Source of the DNA: a virus
DNA length: 64,000 bases
Strand: one strand, 5' to 3'
IMG/VR virus record: IMGVR_UViG_3300046779_002349
Location: 32,001-96,000 of that record
The translations under genes were made by a program, and so were the position numbers. The notes below the pieces were generated by a model. The model ran no database searches. It was given only the letters and a program-made list of their open reading frames with translations, and had not been told where the DNA came from. Below are positions 8,594-15,773 of the stretch, in pieces; the stretch's first letter is position 1; every line of letters begins with the position of its first letter.

Positions 8594-10474
8594 ATGCCTC
8601 AAGTTGACTTTTATAAGCTTATCACAAAAGACAGTGATTTTAAAGACAAGATTAATAAAATCTTGAAATTGATTCACCTTGAGGATGTTAAGTATAACAG
8701 AGGATCAGGTTCCGCACTGAAGCGGAGAGACATGTATATGCACGATCTTTTGAAATTGTGCAACTACAATTTAGGAATTTTAATTCCTATGTTTTTTCCT
8801 AAATATATCAAAGGTAAGCCATTGGACCCTCGAAGGAGACCATTTAGCTTTCTTATGACTGATATCTTTAGTCACGGATTTACGGCTATTAGAGGTAGTC
8901 GTCAGATCGCCAAGTCCACTACTTTTGTAGCTAGGCAACTGATTAAATCCATTTTGTTCAATAACTTTAAAAGCATGTATGTATGTCCTCACGGTGAGCA
9001 TAAGAAAACCTACGCCAACCGTTTTGCTGAGATGGAACTTGCTTGTCCTATTGTTCAAGGGTTACTTAAACAAAACAGTAATTTAAGAAACAATCTATTT
9101 TATAAGCAGTACTCTAATGGTTCTGAAACCAATATTGTTAACTGCTTGGAAAACGTAAGTCAGGCTCGTTCAAAGACTACTGACGAGCTGCTTTATGACG
9201 AGTATCAGCTTTTTGACATTGACCTAGAGGCTGATATTTTCCAATGTCAGTCTGCCAGTGATACTCCTATGACAGTTTATGCAGGTACTAGTACAACTAT
9301 TGATTCTCCACTCGAGTTTCGTTATCAACAAGGAAGTCAGGCTCAATGGTTAGTAAAGTCTATGGACGGAAAGCAGTGGTTAGACTTCTCTGATGCCGAT
9401 ACGCTTATTAGCTGCATTAAACCTCAAGGATTGATTTGTCCATACACCAGTAAACCATTGGATGTAAACGACGGAGAGTTGGTTCATAAATTTGATTCTA
9501 GGCGAGAACTCGGTATGGTGTCCATGCATGTTCCCCAGTTAATTATTTACGATAAAGTTCGTGATGCTTTGGAGTGGGAAAAGATCTATAAAGCATTTCT
9601 GGAAGATAGAGATGATAAGAAGCATAAGTTTCTAGAAGAGGTCGGGGGAATTCCTTCAGAAGAAGGCTCTCGAGAAATTACGGAACAAGATCTAAGAGAT
9701 ATTTGCGTTTTGGGTAGTAGTGCTGAACTTTACGAAAAGGCCCAAACTGGTTATTACTCCAAACTAGTGAGTGCCTGCGACTGGGGTGGTTCTGACGATG
9801 TTCCTAACTACAAAAATAGAAAATCTTTCACTGTGCACAGTATTCTTGGTGTAGCCCCTGACGGAGGTATAGACATTATTTATATACGTCAGTACGATGG
9901 TATGGACTTCCCAACTATTTCTAAGCACATCATTAAGACTCATAAATCTTATGGGTGTATGGCTATGGCTGCTGACTATGGTGTGGGTATGGCTTACAAC
10001 TACCTTATGAAAGAAAACATGAACTCAAATAATTTCTTTATGTTCTCTCTGGTGGGTAGTGGAAAAACAATAAAAATTCTGGATAAGGGAGCTCCAAATC
10101 ACTTCGCTCTAAATAAGACTGAGTCCCTAAGCCAGTTGTTTATTGATATCAAAAATGGACCTCCTAAGATTAGGTGTTATGATTGGGCTGAGTCTGGCCC
10201 TAGATTACAAGAATTTTTAAATCTGTACCGTGTGTTCAATGAAGGAAGCTCTATGAATAGTTTCCATTATCATAAACTAGCGTCGAAACCAGACGACTCT
10301 TTAATGAGTGTTAATTTTGGTTACACTTTGCTTCGTATCATCTTGGGCGAGTCGATTGTATCTAATCAAGTTGATGTCGATCTACATCAAGCGGAAGTCC
10401 TTCATAGAACAGGACTCAACAAAGACTTTGATGATTTCTCAGCTGGAGTATTTTCATCTATTGTTTCTGGGTAG
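8594..10474 (+). CDS. terL: Terminase large subunit
   Basis: Walker A-like RGSRQIAKSTT, Walker B LLYDEYQ, coupling motif AGTS, RNase H-like nuclease motifs ACDWGG, AADYGVG, KPDD. Confidence 0.85.
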   Translation: MPQVDFYKLITKDSDFKDKINKILKLIHLEDVKYNRGSGSALKRRDMYMHDLLKLCNYNLGILIPMFFPKYIKGKPLDPRRRPFSFLMTDIFSHGFTAIRGSRQIAKSTTFVARQLIKSILFNNFKSMYVCPHGEHKKTYANRFAEMELACPIVQGLLKQNSNLRNNLFYKQYSNGSETNIVNCLENVSQARSKTTDELLYDEYQLFDIDLEADIFQCQSASDTPMTVYAGTSTTIDSPLEFRYQQGSQAQWLVKSMDGKQWLDFSDADTLISCIKPQGLICPYTSKPLDVNDGELVHKFDSRRELGMVSMHVPQLIIYDKVRDALEWEKIYKAFLEDRDDKKHKFLEEVGGIPSEEGSREITEQDLRDICVLGSSAELYEKAQTGYYSKLVSACDWGGSDDVPNYKNRKSFTVHSILGVAPDGGIDIIYIRQYDGMDFPTISKHIIKTHKSYGCMAMAADYGVGMAYNYLMKENMNSNNFFMFSLVGSGKTIKILDKGAPNHFALNKTESLSQLFIDIKNGPPKIRCYDWAESGPRLQEFLNLYRVFNEGSSMNSFHYHKLASKPDDSLMSVNFGYTLLRIILGESIVSNQVDVDLHQAEVLHRTGLNKDFDDFSAGVFSSIVSG

Positions 10475-10482
10475 TAGATAAT

Positions 10483-10524
10483 AAAAAAGGTGACACCCCC
10501 GCAGCGTGAATAGCTACGGGGGTG
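10483..10524 (-). terminator. Intrinsic terminator closing the ncRNA region
   Basis: On the minus strand: CACCCCCGTAGC-7 nt loop-GCTGCGGGGGTG, then TCACC and T6. The U.G pair forms only on the minus strand. Confidence 0.65.
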
Positions 10525-10579
10525 ATTGCTTTTAATTGACTGCGTTGATAATTGATTGTGCAGTTGTTTGTTTGGTAAG

Positions 10580-10701
10580 TGGTATCCCGCCCCAAGACAA
10601 CCCGAAAAGGTTCGAGTCATACGATCTTGGGCTATCCAGATATTAAGCCGCCCGAATCAATCGGACCAAAGCCATCTGGTCGGTGCGTAGTCACGCGGGA
10701 T
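10580..10701 (-). ncRNA. tRNA-like structured RNA ending in A-CCA (122 nt)
   Basis: 7-bp acceptor-like stem ATCCCGC/GCGGGAT plus ACCA; internal helices CCAGAT/ATCTGG and CCCAAGA/TCTTGGG; no canonical T loop or anticodon loop. Confidence 0.55.
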
Positions 10702-10889
10702 ATTTGGTAGGGGGAGATTGTTAATAGGTACGAAACTTATTGTTCGTACCAGAAGAGAAATGGGATTATTGTTGGGGCGTACAGAACATTATCTGCGCGA
10801 ATAGCGAACCCAGTAAAATAATTTTTAATGGCTTTTTTGCTGAACAGTAGTTTGTAGCGTATGGTTGTGTTTTTCATGGTAGGGAAAAT

Positions 10890-10974
10890 TGGTGGCCTGG
10901 GCACCTCGGCATTATTGTAGTCAAGCGTCCGCATTGTGGGATAGTTCGCTAATTATTCTACTCATCCGCAGACC
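10890..10974 (-). ncRNA. Small CCA-ended structured RNA (85 nt), possibly Y-RNA-like
   Basis: Terminal helix GGTCTG(C)GG/CCCAGGCC plus ACCA; 3' trailer ATTTTCCC resembles the ATTTCCC trailer of the tRNA at 11538. Confidence 0.45.
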
Positions 10975-10984
10975 GTTTTAAATA

Positions 10985-11208
10985 GGTGAAGCAGGTGGGG
11001 CGTAACTCCCACTGGACTGCACTATTGTGCATCGACATTTTATGAACGTTGAACTGGATTACCCAGTGGCTCTGTCTTATCCCCAATACACTGGGTTTTC
11101 TATTCGGTCAGAGTCCAGTCTTACGTCTTAGCATCTCGGTGTATCTCCGCTAAGACTTGTCAACCAGTCTCATCTTCCTGCGTGTCTACTTTCCACGCCG
11201 CTGCTTCA
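10985..11208 (-). ncRNA. Large tRNA-like RNA (~224 nt) with a structured insertion
   Basis: Acceptor-like stem GAAGCAG/CTGCTTC plus ACC, D-arm-like GCGTG..CACGC, T-arm-like GTGGG/CCCAC, internal hairpins GTCTTAGC/GCTAAGAC, CCCAGTG/CACTGGG, TGCAC/GTGCA. Confidence 0.55.
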
Positions 11209-11537
11209 TTTGTTGTGTATTACCACATTCCAACCCCCTCAATAGACTCTCACTTAAAAGTGAGGATTTTCTTTCTTTACGGCAGCCTCATTGCGGAGGC
11301 TGGAATGTGGTGACATACGATAAAGCTGGTATGTCAGCAGCTGCACATGTGCTTTTCCTACTTATTGTCCAGGTTCTTCACTTTGCTTATGGTTGAGCTT
11401 CAGACTCTAGCCTCAACGGACACCCTAAACATACGTCTTAGTGACGAAATGGCCTCAATGCAATAAGTAAAAACTTTTATCGGTTTTCTCTGATTTTCAT
11501 ATTATTTGTACTTCATATTATTTGTTGTTGGGGAAAT

Positions 11538-11613
11538 TGGTACTCCGACTGGGGCTCGAACCCAGGACCAAGGCGTTATGAGCACCCTGCTCTAACCGCT
11601 GAGCTATCGGAGT
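11538..11613 (-). tRNA. tRNA with CAT anticodon, probably tRNA-Ile2 (lysidine type) rather than Met
   Basis: ACTCCGATAGCTCAGCGGTTAGAGCAGGGTGCTCATAACGCCTTGGTCCTGGGTTCGAGCCCCAGTCGGAGTACCA: full cloverleaf with encoded CCA. C4:G69 and C5:G68 pairs are as in Ile2. Confidence 0.9.
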
Positions 11614-11617
11614 ATAG

Positions 11618-11694
11618 TGGCGTGCTCATCAGGACTTGAACCTGAAACCCACAGCTTAGAAGGCTGTTGCTCTATCCAATTGAGCTATGAGCAC
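11618..11694 (-). tRNA. tRNA-Arg(TCT)
   Basis: GTGCTCATAGCTCAATTGGATAGAGCAACAGCCTTCTAAGCTGTGGGTTTCAGGTTCAAGTCCTGATGAGCACGCCA: cloverleaf, anticodon TCT, encoded CCA. Confidence 0.95.
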
Positions 11695-11702
11695 GTATTT
11701 TT

Positions 11703-12300
11703 CAGAATAGTTTTATTTTGTTATTCATACAATATTACTTGCTGAACTATTCTTATCAGATGGGATAACATTACAATTTAAAAGATTGTTGTTATTGTTT
11801 GCTGAACCCATCTTATCAGATTTCTTGTTATGAACCCAAATCATAGTTTTGTGCTTGCTGAAGAAATCTTATACTAATTTTTAAAACCTGCAATAAATAT
11901 TTTCAGAATAGTTTTATTTTGTTATCCATACAATATTACTTGCTGAACTATTCTTATCAGATTTCTTACCATGAATACCAATTTTCATATTTTTGTGGTT
12001 GCTGAAGAAATCTTATACTCAAATTTTAAATTTGCAACAAATATTTTCAGAATAGTTTTTTTTTGTTTTGCAGACAATATTATTTGCTGAACTATTCTTA
12101 TCAGATCTCGTAACCATGCCTTATGAACTTGATTTGCTGGAGAGATCTTATTTTTTTTTAAATTGGGCAGGATAGTTAGTTAGGGAGTGGCATTAAGCCA
12201 CTATTATTCATATTATTTTTACTTGCTGAACTATCCTTTTCAGATGGGGTAACATTACAATTTAAAAGATTGTTGTTATTGTTTGCTGAACCCATCTTAT
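11703..12300 (-). repeat. Array of nine 50-73 nt hairpin units (ATAAG-stem-TTCAGCAA-variable-stem'-CTG), putative small-RNA array
   Basis: Units at 11703-11756, 11757-11816, 11817-11872, 11904-11957, 11958-12016, 12048-12101, 12102-12151, 12168-12240, 12241-12300. Terminal stems differ in sequence but always pair; CAGCAA is invariant. Confidence 0.85.
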
Positions 12301-12302
12301 AT

Positions 12303-12332
12303 GCTAGTGGGGGCTCCCACACCCCCACTAGC
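12303..12332 (-). other. 11-bp GC-rich hairpin between the TROVE/vWA stop codon and the array
   Basis: GCTAGTGGGGG/CCCCCACTAGC with no U-tract on the minus strand; more likely a processing or stability hairpin than a terminator. Confidence 0.5.
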
Positions 12333-12342
12333 TCCCATTAAC

Positions 12343-13989
12343 CTACACTTCCATGTCACGAATGATTGGTTGATCCAAGCAGTTTGAGGCTGCTACAACC
12401 GCATCATCCGCAGAATTTATAAACTTGATTACAGCAGGTGAAAACCCGCCAAAGTAATAGACGTTACGTGTAGGCCCGTACGTCTCAAACTTTTTAGTTT
12501 GATTTGCTGGGCTTGCTACGTCCCAGAAAACAAACTTGAATTCATCAACGAATTCCTCAGAAAAGAAAGCTTTTAGCTTAGCCTTTGCTGCGTCGAAGTT
12601 GGTATTATTAATGCCAACCCTATTGAACTCACCGTCCGAAATGCAGATAATGCCTTTTGGAAAGTGGGATTCAGGAACTCCTTGATTTTTAAGATTGATG
12701 AAAAGATCAATCACCTTTTGAAAATCTGTGCTGGTGTAGCATCTCGTGCGGTCGTTGAGGTATTTCTCAACAACATTTGCGCCTTGCCACTCATGCAGAA
12801 TAGCAGAATCATGAAACTCAATCCAGCTATTCTGAAATGTACCGGTAAGGAATTCAGAGAATAGTAGCGCGAGCGACTTAGCTACGTGATTTGCTGTGAC
12901 GGTCAAGCCGGTAGCCATACAGCCCATAGAGCTGGAGGTGTCACGAACTACTATCCAAGGAAATGGATTTTCTTCGCACTTACTTTTAAGTTCCTCGAAC
13001 TGCGCGATAATCAAATCGCGAATTTCAGGATTAGGATGTCTACCTCCTTGTAGTGGGGACAACACGTCAAAAACAAAATCGGTAGTCTTCACAGACTGGC
13101 CTGACTTTACTTTTGATGAAATGAACTCGGAGAACTTACTGCTCAAACCTGTACCCTTCAGGAATGTTTTCGATTTCACCAGTATGCTCAACGCTTTACC
13201 GTGGATCTTGTCGAAATCAATTTCCTGAAACTTGCCTTGCGAGATAAGCTGTTGCCATTGGTGTGCCTTACCAGAAGCTTTGAGTTGCCGATACTGTTTA
13301 TAGGTTTTTCCTGTTGGATCCTCCTTTACTCCAAATAAGGCAGAGCAAATGTACTTGGCAATCAGATTTTTAGCCTGAGCCTCAACAGTAGTGCACTTGC
13401 TCTTGGCTTTAATGGATGGAAGGTATTTGCGAATCAGGTGGGTTTGCTTGTCATCCTGCAATCCATCCAGAATTGTAGAAATGATAAACTGCCAATTAAG
13501 CACTCGCCCATCCCAGCCATTGTAGCTGAGGTCTGTAACCAACATTGTAAAAACATCCTTCCAAGAACCCAGGGCAATGAATGCTTTCAAGTTTTTGTTG
13601 AACGTCTCTGGATGGTTTACTGCCAACCAGATCATACGAAGAATAGATTCGTTCTTCAGGCCTTCACCATTTACCATGCCTACAGCTTCACCTTCGTGTA
13701 CTGTATTGCGTTGAACAGCTCGGAGGTATCCCGTGAACTGTACAGCTTGTGTAGCATTGTGTGCCCACAGGATTGACATGTCAGTAGCAACGTCTTTAAA
13801 CTTTCTTGGTGCAATATAACTACCGCACGATTTGAGCTGATCGACTAATGGGTCGCCAGAAGTGTTAAACTTCTTAGCTCCGTTCTGAGATCGAACTTGA
13901 GCTCCCATTTTTTTACCTTGGGTGATAAATGCATTACCCACTACTTGTGCGGCTTGTACAGGTGCCGCTGCCTTTTTTACGTCGAACAT
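12343..13989 (-). CDS. TROVE/vWA-domain protein (Ro60-related, DUF2828-like)
   Basis: Helical N-terminal region with GxGxK, GSWKD and RKYLPS motifs; C-terminal vWA with MIDAS VRDTSSSM, STDF, ISDGEF, FWDV. Confidence 0.75.
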   Translation of the reverse strand: MFDVKKAAAPVQAAQVVGNAFITQGKKMGAQVRSQNGAKKFNTSGDPLVDQLKSCGSYIAPRKFKDVATDMSILWAHNATQAVQFTGYLRAVQRNTVHEGEAVGMVNGEGLKNESILRMIWLAVNHPETFNKNLKAFIALGSWKDVFTMLVTDLSYNGWDGRVLNWQFIISTILDGLQDDKQTHLIRKYLPSIKAKSKCTTVEAQAKNLIAKYICSALFGVKEDPTGKTYKQYRQLKASGKAHQWQQLISQGKFQEIDFDKIHGKALSILVKSKTFLKGTGLSSKFSEFISSKVKSGQSVKTTDFVFDVLSPLQGGRHPNPEIRDLIIAQFEELKSKCEENPFPWIVVRDTSSSMGCMATGLTVTANHVAKSLALLFSEFLTGTFQNSWIEFHDSAILHEWQGANVVEKYLNDRTRCYTSTDFQKVIDLFINLKNQGVPESHFPKGIICISDGEFNRVGINNTNFDAAKAKLKAFFSEEFVDEFKFVFWDVASPANQTKKFETYGPTRNVYYFGGFSPAVIKFINSADDAVVAASNCLDQPIIRDMEV

Positions 13990-14104: not shown

Positions 14105-14719
14105 TTATATTGTGATCTCGTACTGTTTAACGAATTCCAGCATATTTTCATGCAAACCTAATGACCTAAGCTCGTTTATAATTTTTGCTCTATGCTCTTC
14201 TACAATATCATTGAGAGTTTCTCTAGGTTCGATTATATCGTCGTCCTCTGCCAGGTCCCTAATAGAACTAAGAATTAATTTTTGTACCGACTTTGTGAAG
14301 TCCTGCTTTTCAATAACCAATTCCACTTCCATTCTAGAAATTAGAATCTCTTCAATATTGGGCTCCTCCATAATACCATTTACTAGCTCAGCAAGGTCGC
14401 CTGAGTGGATCGCAAGGCAAATGGATGAGAACGCAATTGGATCTTCAAAGAACAGATCAGTAGTAAAGGCCGTTAGGAGCGCGTTTAAGCGGTTTTCGTT
14501 CTGTTCTGGCAATGTAACCCTAAAAAAGTCTTCAAGCTCTGTAAACAGCTCTACAGGATCCATATGATCCACATAACCAGTATCCTCGTTAGTAAAAAGA
14601 AGATTTTCTTCTCCGACGGTCTTGATTGCTATAATAAACAAAGCAATAGCTGTCGCATCCGGATCTCTCAGGATTTCGGCAGCTTTTTCTCTATTAATTG
14701 TCCAATTTTGGTTATACAC
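14105..14719 (-). CDS. Hypothetical protein (acidic, helical)
   Basis: 204-aa ORF overlapping the end of the upstream gene. Confidence 0.65.
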   Translation of the reverse strand: MYNQNWTINREKAAEILRDPDATAIALFIIAIKTVGEENLLFTNEDTGYVDHMDPVELFTELEDFFRVTLPEQNENRLNALLTAFTTDLFFEDPIAFSSICLAIHSGDLAELVNGIMEEPNIEEILISRMEVELVIEKQDFTKSVQKLILSSIRDLAEDDDIIEPRETLNDIVEEHRAKIINELRSLGLHENMLEFVKQYEITI

Positions 14720-15773
14720 GGTCTTTCAAGTCTGTCAGGAAGTCAATTTTGTCTGTAGTGTCTATTTTTTCGAAGATTAGAGCCGCTTCTGCAGTGGTTG
14801 TTGCGTCTTTTGCTTGTTTTAACAGTTCTGCGGTGCTCTTTGGGTAAAATTTGAACAAATCTTCATCAGAGAACTTATTTAGGTCATCTTTTGGCAACAA
14901 AATGCTATCCTCGTCAATTGATACAGCAATATGGGTGCTGGCGATCTTTTCTAGCTCTTTTACAGCAATTCCCGAGTAAATTGTCTCTGCTGCAGTCTTG
15001 TATAGGTCGTGACGTCTAATTTCTGGTGTTAAAATGGCATGATCAAGCAAATCGAACACTTCTACCCATTCCGCTACAGAATCTTCACTCAAATCGCAGG
15101 CCATTTTGATGTACAGCTCTTTCGCTTCAGGATCTTGCACAGAATTAACTCTAAACGCAATCTGAGACGGAATTAGCGACAAATCCATCAATCTATCCTC
15201 AGCAGCCTCTTTAATAAGGGTGGGAACTGAGTCTAGGGCATCAAGGCGCTCTGCAGCCGTTACAATTTTAGCAGCTGCCTCTTTCAGCAGGTCAGAGGGT
15301 AGTTTAGCGTGCATTCTCGCATCTTTCCACTCGTGACAGCTGTGATCCAAGTCAAGGACGTCGTTAAGCGGAAGAAATCCAGTTTGTACACCATCTTCTT
15401 CAATAACTAGCGCAAAATTTTCACCGATGCTTTCCGAGGCCGATTTTTCGATATTTTCTGTGAAAATTTCTTTAACGTCGGAAATTAGAGAGTCCATCTT
15501 CAAAAACGATGCTCTTTTCTCAATTACATCGATAATTTCCGAATCTTCTACTCCCGTACCGTAAACATTACAAGCACTGAGAAAAGTTGTCAGTTCATCG
15601 TAGCAGGGAAACAATTTATTCTTCTGATCCGCAAAAGCATGCTTACTGAGACCTTCAACGCTCTCTCGCGAAGGAATTTCTGCATCGTTTAAAGATTCTG
15701 GAAGCTTACCCTCTAAAGCTCCTAGAGCTTTATAGATGTAAGTAGGATTTTTATCTGTCGTATAGTCCATCAT
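14712..15773 (-). CDS. Putative head-assembly/scaffold-like protein rich in KxA motifs
   Basis: Acidic 353-aa protein with IEKRAS, IEKSAS, LLKEAA, LIKEAA, LYKTAA, LEKIAS, LLKQAK. Confidence 0.55.
   Translation of the reverse strand: MMDYTTDKNPTYIYKALGALEGKLPESLNDAEIPSRESVEGLSKHAFADQKNKLFPCYDELTTFLSACNVYGTGVEDSEIIDVIEKRASFLKMDSLISDVKEIFTENIEKSASESIGENFALVIEEDGVQTGFLPLNDVLDLDHSCHEWKDARMHAKLPSDLLKEAAAKIVTAAERLDALDSVPTLIKEAAEDRLMDLSLIPSQIAFRVNSVQDPEAKELYIKMACDLSEDSVAEWVEVFDLLDHAILTPEIRRHDLYKTAAETIYSGIAVKELEKIASTHIAVSIDEDSILLPKDDLNKFSDEDLFKFYPKSTAELLKQAKDATTTAEAALIFEKIDTTDKIDFLTDLKDRV

What the first reader, a model, noticed from the sequence alone, without database searches (positions are those of the whole stretch)
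11703..12300. Nine-unit hairpin array with an invariant CAGCAA and fully compensatory stems
Minus-strand consensus is ATAAG-[stem]-TTCAGCAA-[variable interior]-[stem']-CTG. Five stem types occur: AGAATAGTT/AACTATTCT (x3), AGATGGG/CCCATCT (x2), AGATTTCTT/AAGAAATCT (x2), AGATCTC/GAGATCT, AGGATAGTT/AACTATCCT. Sequence changes while pairing is kept, which signals selection on RNA structure. Several interiors have their own hairpin (e.g. AGTGGC/GCCACT). Units abut head-to-tail (CTG|ATAAG), suggesting processing into 50-73 nt RNAs. This is not CRISPR: there are no identical direct repeats with unique spacers.
Basis: seen in the sequence. Interest (0 to 1): 0.88.

Follow-up and report, generated by a model that had tools for sequence, protein, structure and literature searches.

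The report
Nine partner RNAs of Ro-like protein
A freshwater phage carries, directly behind the gene for a ring-shaped Ro60-like protein, a row of nine small hairpin RNAs that share one conserved "handle"; the same protein-RNA pairing recurs in very different phages, is in no paper or RNA catalogue I could search, and the handle closely resembles the unexplained Class I RNAs of the amoeba Dictyostelium.

Summary
Nine units lie on the minus strand at 11703-12300. Each reads AUAA-G, a 6-8 bp stem, (U/C)CAGCAA, a variable interior, the second stem strand, then CUG. A covariance model finds these nine and nothing else in the 150-kb phage genome.

The stems covary. Against a 94% relative, the handle changed at 1 of 204 positions versus 49 of 447 elsewhere.

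The upstream gene is Pfam DUF2828/DUF7788, not canonical TROVE. Its AlphaFold model nevertheless matches full-length Ro60 (Z 21).

The same handle lies beside or near this gene family in cyanophage-like contigs, Leptolyngbya phage Lbo-JY46, Felix-O1-type coliphage Bas63, a Bacillus phage (weak matches) and jumbo phages (weaker matches, inside their tRNA clusters). In relatives the interior can be a tRNA-like module. Here it is often an anticodon-loop-like hairpin.

Best reading: Y-RNA-like partner RNAs of a Ro60-like protein, acting in tRNA-centred conflict. Binding and expression are not shown.

The handle matches Rfam's Dictyostelium Class I RNA model just below threshold (39.3 vs 41.5 bits in a relative; 17-23 bits here).

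I found no publication of this RNA family. This scan has reported the same system before on other DNA (28 notes, at least 28 genomes).

The parts
12343..13989 (-). Gene for a 548-aa Ro60-like protein (DUF2828/DUF7788 family) with an intact vWA MIDAS motif (D350-x-S352-x-S354)
   Evidence: Pfam PF25043 49.5 bits (cut-off 27.1) and PF11443 26.9 bits (just below the cut-off of 29). PHROG 850 'RNA-binding protein', E 2e-35. AlphaFold model pLDDT 86.4. Best PDB matches are full-length Ro60. Invariant residues come from 30 relatives.
12303..12332 (-). GC-rich hairpin just after the stop codon, with no U-tract
   Evidence: Read in sequence. A hairpin stands at the same place in L122 and L124, with compensating changes. 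Its role (stabiliser or processing signal) is inferred.
12241..12300 (-). Unit 1: stem GAUGGG/CCCAUC; interior hairpin ACAAU-CUUUUAA-AUUGU
   Evidence: R1 57.9 bits; fold; 5-bp stem with 7-nt loop CUUUUAA.
12168..12240 (-). Unit 2: leader AAAAG; stem GGAUAGUU/AACUAUCC; interior hairpin AGUGGC/GCCACU
   Evidence: R1 42.8 bits; fold z -3.99. The interior hairpin covaries with L123 (AGCGGC/GCCGC).
12152..12167 (-). 16-nt spacer CCCAAUUUAAAAAAAA
   Evidence: Read in sequence.
12102..12151 (-). Unit 3: stem GAUCUC/GAGAUC; motif UCCAGCAA; no clear interior hairpin
   Evidence: R1 36.1 bits; fold.
12048..12101 (-). Unit 4: stem GAAUAGUU/AACUAUUC; interior UUGU-CUGCAAA-ACAA
   Evidence: R1 53 bits; 7-nt loop.
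12017..12047 (-). 31-nt linker with a promoter-like site (CTGAAA-16-TAAAAT) that would start transcription near the AUAAG of unit 5
   Evidence: Consensus scan. The number of such sites in the region is not above chance (10 found, 8.4 expected). One substitution against L122.
11958..12016 (-). Unit 5: stem GAUUUCUU/AAGAAAUC; interior AUGAA-(8-nt loop)-UUCAU
   Evidence: R1 46.3 bits; fold.
11904..11957 (-). Unit 6: same stem as unit 4; interior UUGU-AUGGAUA-ACAA
   Evidence: R1 49.8 bits; loop. The loop differs at one middle position in L122 (AUUGAUA).
11873..11903 (-). Second 31-nt linker, a copy of the first
   Evidence: Read in sequence. Identical in L122.
11817..11872 (-). Unit 7: same stem as unit 5; interior UAUGA-UUUGGGU-UCAUA
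   Evidence: R1 44.2 bits; loop.
11757..11816 (-). Unit 8: near-copy of unit 1
   Evidence: R1 58.9 bits.
11703..11756 (-). Unit 9: same stem as units 4 and 6; interior UUGU-AUGAAUA-ACAA; followed 8 nt later by tRNA-Arg
   Evidence: R1 50.1 bits; sequence.
11618..11694 (-). tRNA-Arg(UCU), same strand, directly after the array
   Evidence: ARAGORN; Rfam tRNA 70 bits.
11538..11613 (-). tRNA with anticodon CAU (Met or Ile2)
   Evidence: ARAGORN; Rfam tRNA 63 bits.
10494..10524 (-). Intrinsic-terminator-like hairpin (12 pairs, 9 G-C) with a T-run. It is the first one downstream of the gene and array, so it is the probable end of the transcription unit.
   Evidence: Consensus scan.

Best explanation
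The array encodes nine small non-coding RNAs, about 46-69 nt from the 5' G to the 3' CUG. They belong to a widespread and, as far as I can find, undescribed family.

Each RNA has a constant 'handle'. The two ends pair in a 6-8 bp helix that opens with an invariant G:C pair, and the A before the G can pair with the U of CUG. The 5' strand runs straight into single-stranded (U)U(A)CAGCAA. The strand entering the 3' half of the helix is A-rich.

I infer that the handle is the docking site for the Ro60-like ring protein encoded immediately upstream. This would parallel Y RNAs, which dock on Ro60 through a conserved 5'-strand motif next to the helix formed by their two ends.

The interior is a swappable display module. 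In this phage it is a short hairpin. Four of the nine have a 7-nt loop of anticodon-loop form: CUUUUAA twice, CUGCAAA and UUUGGGU. In relatives the interior can be a T-arm plus D-arm, or a whole tRNA body without its acceptor stem.

The RNAs are probably made on one transcript with the protein gene and the two tRNAs, possibly also from promoters in the two 31-nt linkers. They would then be cut apart in the AUAA joints and by tRNA-processing enzymes.

The complex most likely acts in tRNA-centred conflict with the host. It could serve as a decoy or adaptor for enzymes that recognise tRNA parts, or in RNA repair and quality control.

Shown: the family, its structure, the selection on it, and its linkage to the gene. 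Inferred: binding, processing and function.
For: Structure and selection:
- Covariation in the terminal helix.
- Handle changed at 1 of 204 positions versus 49 of 447 elsewhere against the 94% relative L122, Fisher p 1e-7.
- One interior type (AACAACAAUCUUUUAAAUUGU) is kept in the window, L123 and L003, with variants in L126 and L128, while its closing stem changes completely: GAUGGG, GGUGAG, GAAUAGUU, GAGUACA.

Linkage, protein to RNA:
- Every locus fetched through the protein holds handle units: L001-L004, L122, L123/L124, L126 and L128.
- Whole-record scans put all hits right after the gene in Lbo-JY46 and Bas63. In the jumbo phages GAP32 and XbC2 the hits lie in the tRNA cluster (GAP32 inspected), about 200 kb from the gene.

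Linkage, RNA to protein:
- Arrays found by a DNA pattern alone (L008, L025, L028, L083, L085, L101, L102/L106, L074) all have a DUF2828 gene within a few kb. The one exception, L088, sits at a contig end.

Protein fold:
- Ro60 Z 21, rmsd 3.7 A, 388 residues aligned, well above the vWA-only matches at Z 11.
- MIDAS residues are invariant.

tRNA theme:
- Sub-threshold YrlA hits on tRNA-like interiors.
- tRNA model positions 6-65 match inside handles.
- 20 of 63 short units carry a hairpin with a Y-U-NNN-R loop, against 1.2 expected and a maximum of 5 in 500 shuffles.
- The gene sits next to tRNA arrays or an RNA ligase gene.

Function of a homologue:
- Bas63 gp130, 24% identical, counters the Ppl defence (preprint 10.1101/2024.10.10.617714).
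Against: - No RNA data exist for this phage, so neither transcripts nor their ends are shown.
- Protein-RNA binding is untested in any member of the family.
- In the PhageMaP preprint, gp130 alone, moved into T7 or expressed from a plasmid, restored plaquing on the ppl strain. At least that activity does not need the phage's own RNAs.
- In jumbo phages the RNAs lie about 200 kb from the gene, so adjacency is not universal. The RNAs track tRNA clusters as much as they track the gene.
- Only 4 of the 9 units here have a good anticodon-like loop. The related units counted are not independent of one another.
- Single-sequence fold z-scores are modest, -1.2 to -4.0.
Confidence: 0.7

Rival explanations
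1. The units are small RNAs of the tRNA cluster that work without the Ro60-like protein. The handle would be a processing or stability module read by host RNases or another host protein. The interiors would act on their own, for example as decoys for anticodon nucleases. Linkage to the DUF2828 gene would then reflect only that both live in the phage's tRNA region.
For: In GAP32 the units start directly at tRNA 3' ends and lie about 200 kb from the DUF2828 gene. In Bas63 they sit between tRNAs. In the window the array runs straight into tRNA-Arg. gp130 works against Ppl without the RNAs. In Dictyostelium the one proven Class I RNA binder is an RRM protein, Rnp1A (PMC7919456).
Against: Co-occurrence with DUF2828 holds in both directions and across phages of cyanobacteria, Proteobacteria and, on weak matches, Bacillota. 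This phage has only three tRNAs yet nine units, all directly behind the gene. An invariant 6-nt single-stranded motif plus fixed end nucleotides is more than RNase recognition usually needs. The motif sits where Y RNAs carry their Ro60-binding motif (PMC4201824).
Confidence: 0.17
2. The repeats act at the DNA or transcription level. They would be a series of terminators or attenuators, promoter-plus-stem-loop cassettes, or a mobile intergenic repeat, rather than stable RNAs.
For: Two linkers hold promoter-like hexamers. The array grew by block duplication. One metagenome contig lacks a 144-nt block.
Against: No unit has a U-tract, and the stems are AU-rich. The terminator scan reports none of the units. 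The handle is strand-specific and is found only on the strand of the gene and tRNAs. The family is conserved across distant phages with tRNA-like interiors. A mobile repeat or terminator would not need an invariant single-stranded CAGCAA. The promoter-like count is at chance level.
Confidence: 0.04
3. The units are decaying tRNA-derived remnants (pseudogenes) without a function of their own.
For: Relatives show every grade from a whole tRNA body to a bare anticodon-like hairpin inside the same handle.
Against: There is strong purifying selection on the handle and compensatory change in its helix. The handle replaces the acceptor stem in a regular way and is itself not tRNA-like.
Confidence: 0.02

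Closest known systems
Ro60 (Rsr/TROVE2) with Y RNAs, especially bacterial and phage YrlA/YrlB (Rfam RF02553; Chen et al. 2014, PMC4201824) and Thermus phage phiLo Ro60 with Yrl1/Yrl2 (PMC12135203)
   Same: - The protein has the full Ro60 fold: a helical-repeat ring plus a vWA domain with MIDAS.
- Small RNA genes lie beside the gene on the same strand, usually several per genome.
- The RNA ends pair in a helix, with a conserved motif on the 5' strand next to it.
- The rest of the RNA is variable and in relatives is a tRNA-like T-arm/D-arm module that scores on the YrlA model (42 and 33 bits).
- Association with RNA ligase genes in some genomes, which recalls the rsr-rtcB operons (the operon comparison is from my own knowledge).
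   Different: - The protein is not a sequence-detectable TROVE member. Pfam gives DUF2828/DUF7788, and a 30-sequence profile finds no Ro60 in the PDB at E <= 1.
- The RNA motif is (U)U(A)CAGCAA plus a 3' CUG, not GNCGAAN0-1G/CGAA. No window unit contains CGAA.
- The YrlA model never matches the handle and stays below its threshold of 69 bits.
- The units here are half the size of Y RNAs, come nine in a row, and carry no T/D module.
Dictyostelium Class I RNAs (Rfam RF01414; Aspegren 2004; Kjellin et al. 2021, PMC7919456)
   Same: The build is the same point for point:
[quoted passage not shown]
- The motif CCUUACAGCAA directly after the 5' strand. Its near-invariant positions U3, C6, C9, A10 and A11 are all present in the phage motif.
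- A variable A-rich interior, a 3' end in CUG(U), a length of about 42-65 nt and low G+C.
- Phage units reach 39.3, 35.8 and 30.7 bits on RF01414.
   Different: - No phage unit reaches the gathering score of 41.5.
- The window's own units lack the A of UUACAGCAA and score only 17-23 bits.
- Class I RNAs are dispersed eukaryotic genes with a DUSE promoter. They are reported as unique to Dictyostelia, and their one proven binder is the RRM protein Rnp1A.
- Whether Dictyostelium has a DUF2828 protein could not be tested here.
Bas63 (Escherichia phage JohannRWettstein) gp130, a counter of the Ppl defence (PhageMaP preprint 10.1101/2024.10.10.617714)
   Same: Same protein family (Pfam PF25043 148 bits, PF11443 104 bits). 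The authors noted the Ro60-like fold and guessed that some neighbouring 'tRNA genes' might be Y RNAs. I find three handle units between its tRNAs.
   Different: Only 24% identical to the window protein. The preprint neither identifies the RNAs nor describes the handle. Its phenotype was obtained with the protein alone. The host and defence system are from E. coli, whereas this phage comes from freshwater metagenomes and its nearest cultured relative infects Leptolyngbya.

Membership tests
Ro60 / Y RNA ribonucleoprotein (YrlA, Rfam RF02553) | Protein with a TROVE domain recognisable by sequence (Pfam PF05731) | tested here: not met
   Pfam reports only PF25043 and PF11443. A profile of 30 relatives finds no Ro60 chain in the PDB at E <= 1.
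Ro60 / Y RNA ribonucleoprotein (YrlA, Rfam RF02553) | Ro60 three-dimensional architecture (helical-repeat ring plus vWA/MIDAS) | tested here: met
   On a predicted model (pLDDT 86.4): Foldseek top 10 are all Ro60, E 4e-8 to 2e-6. VIA-align Z 21.0, rmsd 3.7 A, 388 aligned, spanning residues 27-528. The DxSxS motif is invariant.
Ro60 / Y RNA ribonucleoprotein (YrlA, Rfam RF02553) | RNA with the Ro60-binding motif GNCGAAN0-1G / CGAA near the 5' end | tested here: not met
   No window unit contains CGAA. The conserved motif is CAGCAA.
Ro60 / Y RNA ribonucleoprotein (YrlA, Rfam RF02553) | Score at or above the Rfam gathering threshold (69 bits) | tested here: not met
   In the window, 18.2 bits, and that match lies on the two tRNAs. 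In relatives, 42 and 33 bits on the tRNA-like interior only, model positions 23-85.
Ro60 / Y RNA ribonucleoprotein (YrlA, Rfam RF02553) | RNA bound by, and stabilised by, the Ro60 protein | not testable with these tools
   Needs RIP, EMSA or a deletion mutant.
Dictyostelium Class I RNA (Rfam RF01414) | Short helix joining the 5' and 3' ends, 5' G paired with the C of a 3' CUG | tested here: met
   9 of 9 units. G:C is invariant in 61 of 61 aligned units.
Dictyostelium Class I RNA (Rfam RF01414) | 11-nt motif CCUUACAGCAA next to the 5' strand (U3, C6, C9, A10, A11 near-invariant) | tested here: inconclusive
   The window has (G)UUCAGCAA. The five near-invariant letters are present but the A before CAGCAA is missing. 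Relatives have the exact CUUACAGCAA.
Dictyostelium Class I RNA (Rfam RF01414) | Score at or above the Rfam gathering threshold (41.5 bits) | tested here: not met
   Window units score 17.6-23.2 bits. The best relative scores 39.3 bits, E 3.8e-6 in a 401-base search. None passes in 140 kb of further loci.
Dictyostelium Class I RNA (Rfam RF01414) | DUSE promoter about 60 nt upstream; dispersed genes in a dictyostelid genome | tested here: not met
   The units are tandem, in a phage, and abut one another. The defining features are taken from PMC7919456.
DUF2828/DUF7788 protein family (Pfam PF11443 + PF25043; PHROG 850) | Scores over the curated Pfam cut-offs | tested here: met
   PF25043 49.5 bits against 27.1. 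PF11443 is just under (26.9 against 29) and covers only the N-terminal part. PHROG 850 E 2e-35 over residues 29-525. At least 1497 relatives.
CRISPR array | Near-identical direct repeats separated by unique spacers of similar length | tested here: not met
   The only constant parts are AUAAG, CAGCAA and CUG. The stems differ between units and the 'spacers' are repeated.
Intrinsic terminators | G+C-rich stem followed by a U-run | tested here: not met
   The terminator scan does not report any of the nine units. The stems are AU-rich and are followed by AUAAG.

The most novel reading that the evidence does not exclude
The orphan Class I RNAs of dictyostelid amoebae, reported as unique to that group and of unknown mechanism, are the eukaryotic branch of this phage RNA family. 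Their real partner would then be a DUF2828 (Ro60-like) protein. This would make 'DUF2828 protein plus CAGCAA-handle RNA' a second, ancient Ro/Y-type ribonucleoprotein shared by phages, giant viruses and eukaryotes, and phage genetics (Bas63 gp130 against Ppl) could be used to find out what Class I RNAs do. In support, DUF2828 proteins occur in fungi, green algae and plants (PMC12344491) and in mimivirus-like sequences (10.1101/033464). Their presence in Dictyostelium itself is untested.
Probability: 0.35. Interest if true: 0.92.

Novelty: new variant of a known kind. Interest (0 to 1): 0.8.

Why it matters
Ro60 and its Y RNAs are a classic RNA-surveillance particle and a human autoantigen. A second, sequence-unrelated-looking family with the same fold and its own differently coded partner RNAs would show that the 'ring protein plus handle RNA with a swappable module' design is much more widespread than thought.

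It would give thousands of phage, fungal and plant DUF2828 genes a testable function. It would also explain unannotated gaps in phage tRNA clusters.

It suggests that phages display loose tRNA parts, such as anticodon loops and T/D elbows, on a common handle. That would be a new kind of tool in the conflict over tRNAs.

Finally, the near-identity of the handle to Dictyostelium Class I RNAs turns a 20-year-old orphan RNA class into a concrete hypothesis that one pull-down could test.

This window is the richest example I saw: nine units, few tRNAs, close relatives at 94, 66, 56 and 54% protein identity, and visible turnover of units and loops.

Tried and rejected
- **Expression.** No RNA holder was listed for the stretch. 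Laying four runs gave only contigs. The two RNA-labelled runs touch only the tRNA part, at 85-90% likeness, from other organisms. Nothing can be said about transcripts or their ends.
- **Rfam.** No family reaches its gathering score on the array. The 1-kb stretch downstream (10400-11620) has no hit except the tRNA.
- **Promoter scan.** 10 sites found against 8.4 expected, so the linker promoters are only a possibility.
- **PADLOC.** No hit for the Ro60-like protein or its three neighbours.
- **Upstream genes.** Pfam at E <= 1 and PHROGs give nothing for the two syntenic upstream genes (204 and 353 aa).
- **Sequence profile against the PDB.** No Ro60 match.
- **ESM Atlas.** It returned only DUF2828 clusters and holds no structure.
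- **Is there a DUF2828 protein in Dictyostelium?** I could not find out.
  - Three word-index searches list only the best 120 hits, which are phage or metagenome proteins.
  - An exhaustive search seeded with a long homologue (P0241) gave a clade whose named members, of the 30 I sampled, are fungi, green algae and plants, none of them an amoebozoan.
  - The Avesson 2011 paper that lists the four Class I RNA-binding proteins is not held.
- **Probably fungal contig L143.** This 8.3-kb contig carries a DUF2828 gene but has no handle or Rfam hit on it.
- **First unit definition.** My first anchor-only definition mis-set many 3' ends. It was replaced by the fixed-offset test.
- **Literature.** No paper in the library links DUF2828, PF11443 or DUF7788 to an RNA, and none puts Class I RNAs outside Dictyostelia.
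Full report
**What is there**

The window lies at 32001-96000 of a single 150,179-bp virus contig. The contig is 39% G+C, IMG/VR-classed, and about 77% complete by CheckV. Freshwater metagenomes hold it.

On the minus strand, the 548-codon gene 12343-13989 is followed by these features:
- a GC-rich hairpin without a U-tract (12303-12332);
- the nine units (12300-11703);
- tRNA-Arg(UCU) eight bases later;
- a CAU tRNA;
- about 1 kb without an Rfam match (it holds one small conserved ORF);
- a strong terminator-like hairpin at 10494-10524, facing the convergent terminase gene.

The whole genome has only three tRNAs.

**The observation**

The pattern A[AT]AAG-N5-10-[TC]CAGCAA finds the nine units. 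It finds one other place in the genome, inside coding sequence on the other strand.

All nine fold with the terminal helix in the minimum-free-energy structure.

Two corrections apply:
- Three of the eight junctions are not head-to-tail. They hold a 16-nt spacer and two copies of a 31-nt linker.
- The array is a product of block duplication. Units 4-linker-5 resemble units 6-linker-7, unit 8 resembles unit 1, and unit 9 resembles unit 6.

Because of the duplication, stem differences inside the window are mostly between old paralogues, and the test for selection has to come from relatives.

**Relatives and selection**

The protein has at least 1497 relatives in public data. I fetched syntenic loci at four levels of protein identity:
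- 94% (L122);
- 66% (L123-L125);
- 56% (L126, L127);
- 54% (L128).

I also fetched more distant loci: L001-L003 from IMG/VR and L004 from Leptolyngbya phage Lbo-JY46, at 39-47%. All carry units of the same build behind the gene.

Against L122, the handle (both helix strands, CAGCAA and the final UG) changed at 1 of 204 positions. That one change turns an A-U pair into a G-U pair. The interiors, linkers and flanks changed at 49 of 447 positions (Fisher p = 1e-7).

One interior type, AACAACAAUCUUUUAAAUUGU, is kept in the window, L123 and L003, with close variants in L126 and L128. Its closing helix is GAUGGG, GGUGAG, GAAUAGUU or GAGUACA, each fully compensated.

On 61 short units aligned by MAFFT, five of the six helix pairs show double changes in 131 cells. 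The covariation score is 0.871, against 0.197 for shuffles and at most 0.136 for slid partners. RNAalifold predicts the same helix unprompted, plus an invariant A:U pair outside it.

Those units had been picked by a finder that demanded six pairs. I therefore repeated the test with units defined by sequence anchors only, and with the 3' partner taken at a fixed offset from the next unit's start:
- 34 of 59 units are 6/6 paired;
- partner swaps give 1.45%;
- shifts of one to three bases give 0-7;
- the paired units use 25 different stems.

**Specificity and linkage**

A covariance model of the handle (R1, 63 positions) finds the nine units and nothing else in the 150-kb genome. These were training sequences, so the informative part is the absence of other hits.

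Whole-record scans gave:
- four hits in Lbo-JY46, all directly after the gene;
- three in Bas63, all among the tRNAs that follow gp130;
- three in GAP32 and two in XbC2, weaker (24-28 bits). In GAP32 they sit inside the tRNA cluster, two of them starting at a tRNA's 3' end, about 200 kb from the gene. The XbC2 hits lie at matching coordinates but I did not inspect them.

The Bacillus phage Skywalker gave no hit at E <= 0.01 in the whole-record scan. With filters off it has two weak matches (12-13.5 bits, E 0.6-1.2). By eye these are handle-like units (ACACAGCAA and UACAGCUA) between its tRNA array and the gene, behind a perfect TTGACA-17-TATAAT promoter.

In the other direction, a blind DNA pattern scan of IMG/VR gave mostly chance hits plus nine true arrays. 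Eight of the nine have a DUF2828 gene within a few kb. The ninth ends at a contig edge.

**The protein**

Pfam calls it DUF7788 plus a weak DUF2828 match, and PHROGs calls it 'RNA-binding protein'. A sequence profile finds no Ro60 in the PDB.

An AlphaFold model from 30 relatives (pLDDT 86.4, pTM 0.85) matches full-length Ro60 structures from frog, human, Deinococcus and Thermus phage phiLo:
- Foldseek E 4e-8 to 2e-6 over 485-600 alignment columns;
- VIA-align Z 21.0, rmsd 3.7 A, 388 residues, against about Z 11 for proteins that share only the vWA domain.

The MIDAS motif is invariant in the family. So 'TROVE protein' is right at the level of fold and wrong at the level of the Pfam family.

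**The interiors**

In relatives the same handle encloses several kinds of interior:
- short A-rich hairpins;
- a T-arm followed by a D-arm, which gives the sub-threshold YrlA matches (42 and 33 bits, model positions 23-85);
- whole tRNA bodies lacking only the acceptor stem (Rfam tRNA positions 6-65);
- two other recurring modules.

In the window all nine are short. Across 63 distinct short units:
- 41 have a stem of at least 4 bp closing a 7-nt loop, against a shuffle mean of 16.7 and a maximum of 28;
- 20 fit pyrimidine-U-NNN-purine, the form of an anticodon loop, against 1.2 expected and a maximum of 5 in 500 shuffles.

Several loops recur on different stems: CUUUUAA, CUCGUAA and CUUGUAA. 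From memory, CUUUUAA is the anticodon loop of tRNA-Lys(UUU). I did not test that here.

Here units 1, 4, 7 and 8 fit the form, and units 6 and 9 have U at the second loop position but not the purine. Between the window and L122 the loops of units 6 and 9 differ only at a middle position.

The related units are not independent. The enrichment is real, but its size is uncertain.

**Comparison with what is known**

The design is that of a Y RNA on Ro60: ends paired, a conserved 5'-strand motif beside the helix, a variable and often tRNA-like module, genes beside the protein gene, and several per genome.

The defining motif of bacterial and phage Y RNAs (GNCGAAN0-1G, CGAA) is absent. The YrlA model never covers the handle. 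This is therefore not a YrlA family member, although it probably works like one.

The unexpected match is Rfam RF01414, the Class I RNAs of Dictyostelium. Its consensus is GaUcuCCUUACAGCAA...A-rich...GagAuCUG. This is the phage handle feature for feature, and phage units reach 39.3, 35.8 and 30.7 bits against a threshold of 41.5.

Kjellin et al. (PMC7919456) describe exactly these features and report the class as unique to Dictyostelia. The window's own units lack one A of the motif and score 17-23 bits. Membership is not met. Homology or convergence on a related binding protein both remain open.

DUF2828 proteins do exist in eukaryotes:
- fungi, Klebsormidium, Ostreobium and Papaver;
- potato;
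- mimivirus-like sequences.

I could not establish whether Dictyostelium has one.

**Function**

The only experiment on the family is the PhageMaP preprint. Deleting Bas63 gene 130 cripples growth on a strain carrying the Ppl defence. The protein alone rescues T7 on that strain. The authors noted the Ro60 fold and guessed at Y RNAs among the tRNA genes.

The gene keeps company with tRNA arrays and RNA ligase genes, and the interiors are tRNA-like. Together these make a role in tRNA-centred conflict or RNA repair the best guess. The specific decoy idea is inference only.

**Prior work**

I found no paper or Rfam family describing these RNAs.

This scan itself has met the system before. A word look-up returned 28 notes in at least 28 other genomes, and follow-up agents reached the same reading. 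I had reached the Ro60-like/Y-RNA and Class I readings, before that look-up. The PhageMaP lead came from one of those notes, and I checked it in the paper. The anticodon-display idea also appears in one of them, and I tested it here.

**Verdict**

This is a real, strongly selected small-RNA family linked to a Ro60-fold protein.
- That the units are structured partner RNAs of that protein: about 0.7.
- The tRNA-mimic, counter-defence function: about 0.35.
- The Dictyostelium connection as true kinship: about 0.35.

Noticed in passing
L124:4751-5035 (66% relative of this phage): The tRNA that corresponds to the window's tRNA-Arg(UCU) is split in its anticodon loop by about 230 nt. Rfam Intron_gpI scores 41 bits (threshold 50), E 3.3e-9, at L124:4772-4966. 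This is probably a group I intron that the window's copy lacks.
   Followed up: partly
window 10525-11537, minus strand: About 1 kb lies between the CAU tRNA and the terminator. It has no Rfam match and is conserved in L122. The 66% relative lacks this stretch.
   Followed up: partly
window 11847-11990: A contig of one freshwater DNA run joins 11846 to 11991, skipping 144 nt. That equals one D-type unit, one 31-nt linker and one E-type unit. It is either a natural seven-unit variant made by recombination between the repeated units, or an assembly collapse of the block repeat.
   Followed up: no
L088:11626-11985 (IMG/VR contig): A tmRNA gene (Rfam 72 bits) sits within a few hundred bases of a seven-unit handle-RNA array.
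   Followed up: no
L085:201-314 and L083:6046-6160: These handle units have a complete tRNA body without an acceptor stem as their interior (Rfam tRNA model positions 6-65, 52.6 and 47.8 bits). The handle helix takes the place of the acceptor stem.
   Followed up: partly
L139 and L140 (Cronobacter phage GAP32, Xanthomonas phage XbC2): In these jumbo phages the DUF2828 gene lies directly after (GAP32) or one small gene after (XbC2) an RNA ligase gene, while the handle-like RNAs are about 200 kb away, in GAP32 inside its tRNA cluster.
   Followed up: partly
L137:2482-2798 (Bacillus phage Skywalker): About 320 nt of unannotated, G+C-richer sequence lies between two handle-like units, just upstream of the DUF2828 gene. 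It has no Rfam hit at gathering scores.
   Followed up: no
L143 (Logan contig, 53% G+C): An 845-aa DUF2828 protein lies next to a PIP5K gene. Its closest named relatives are fungal (Fusarium, Phycomyces, basidiomycetes), with green algae and poppy further out. The family is therefore widespread in eukaryotes.
   Followed up: partly
window 14105-15773, minus strand: Two genes (353 aa and 204 aa, overlapping by 8 nt) directly upstream of the Ro60-like gene are syntenic in all close relatives, with a 115-nt gap to it. They have no Pfam, PHROG or PADLOC match. They are not kept in Lbo-JY46.
   Followed up: partly
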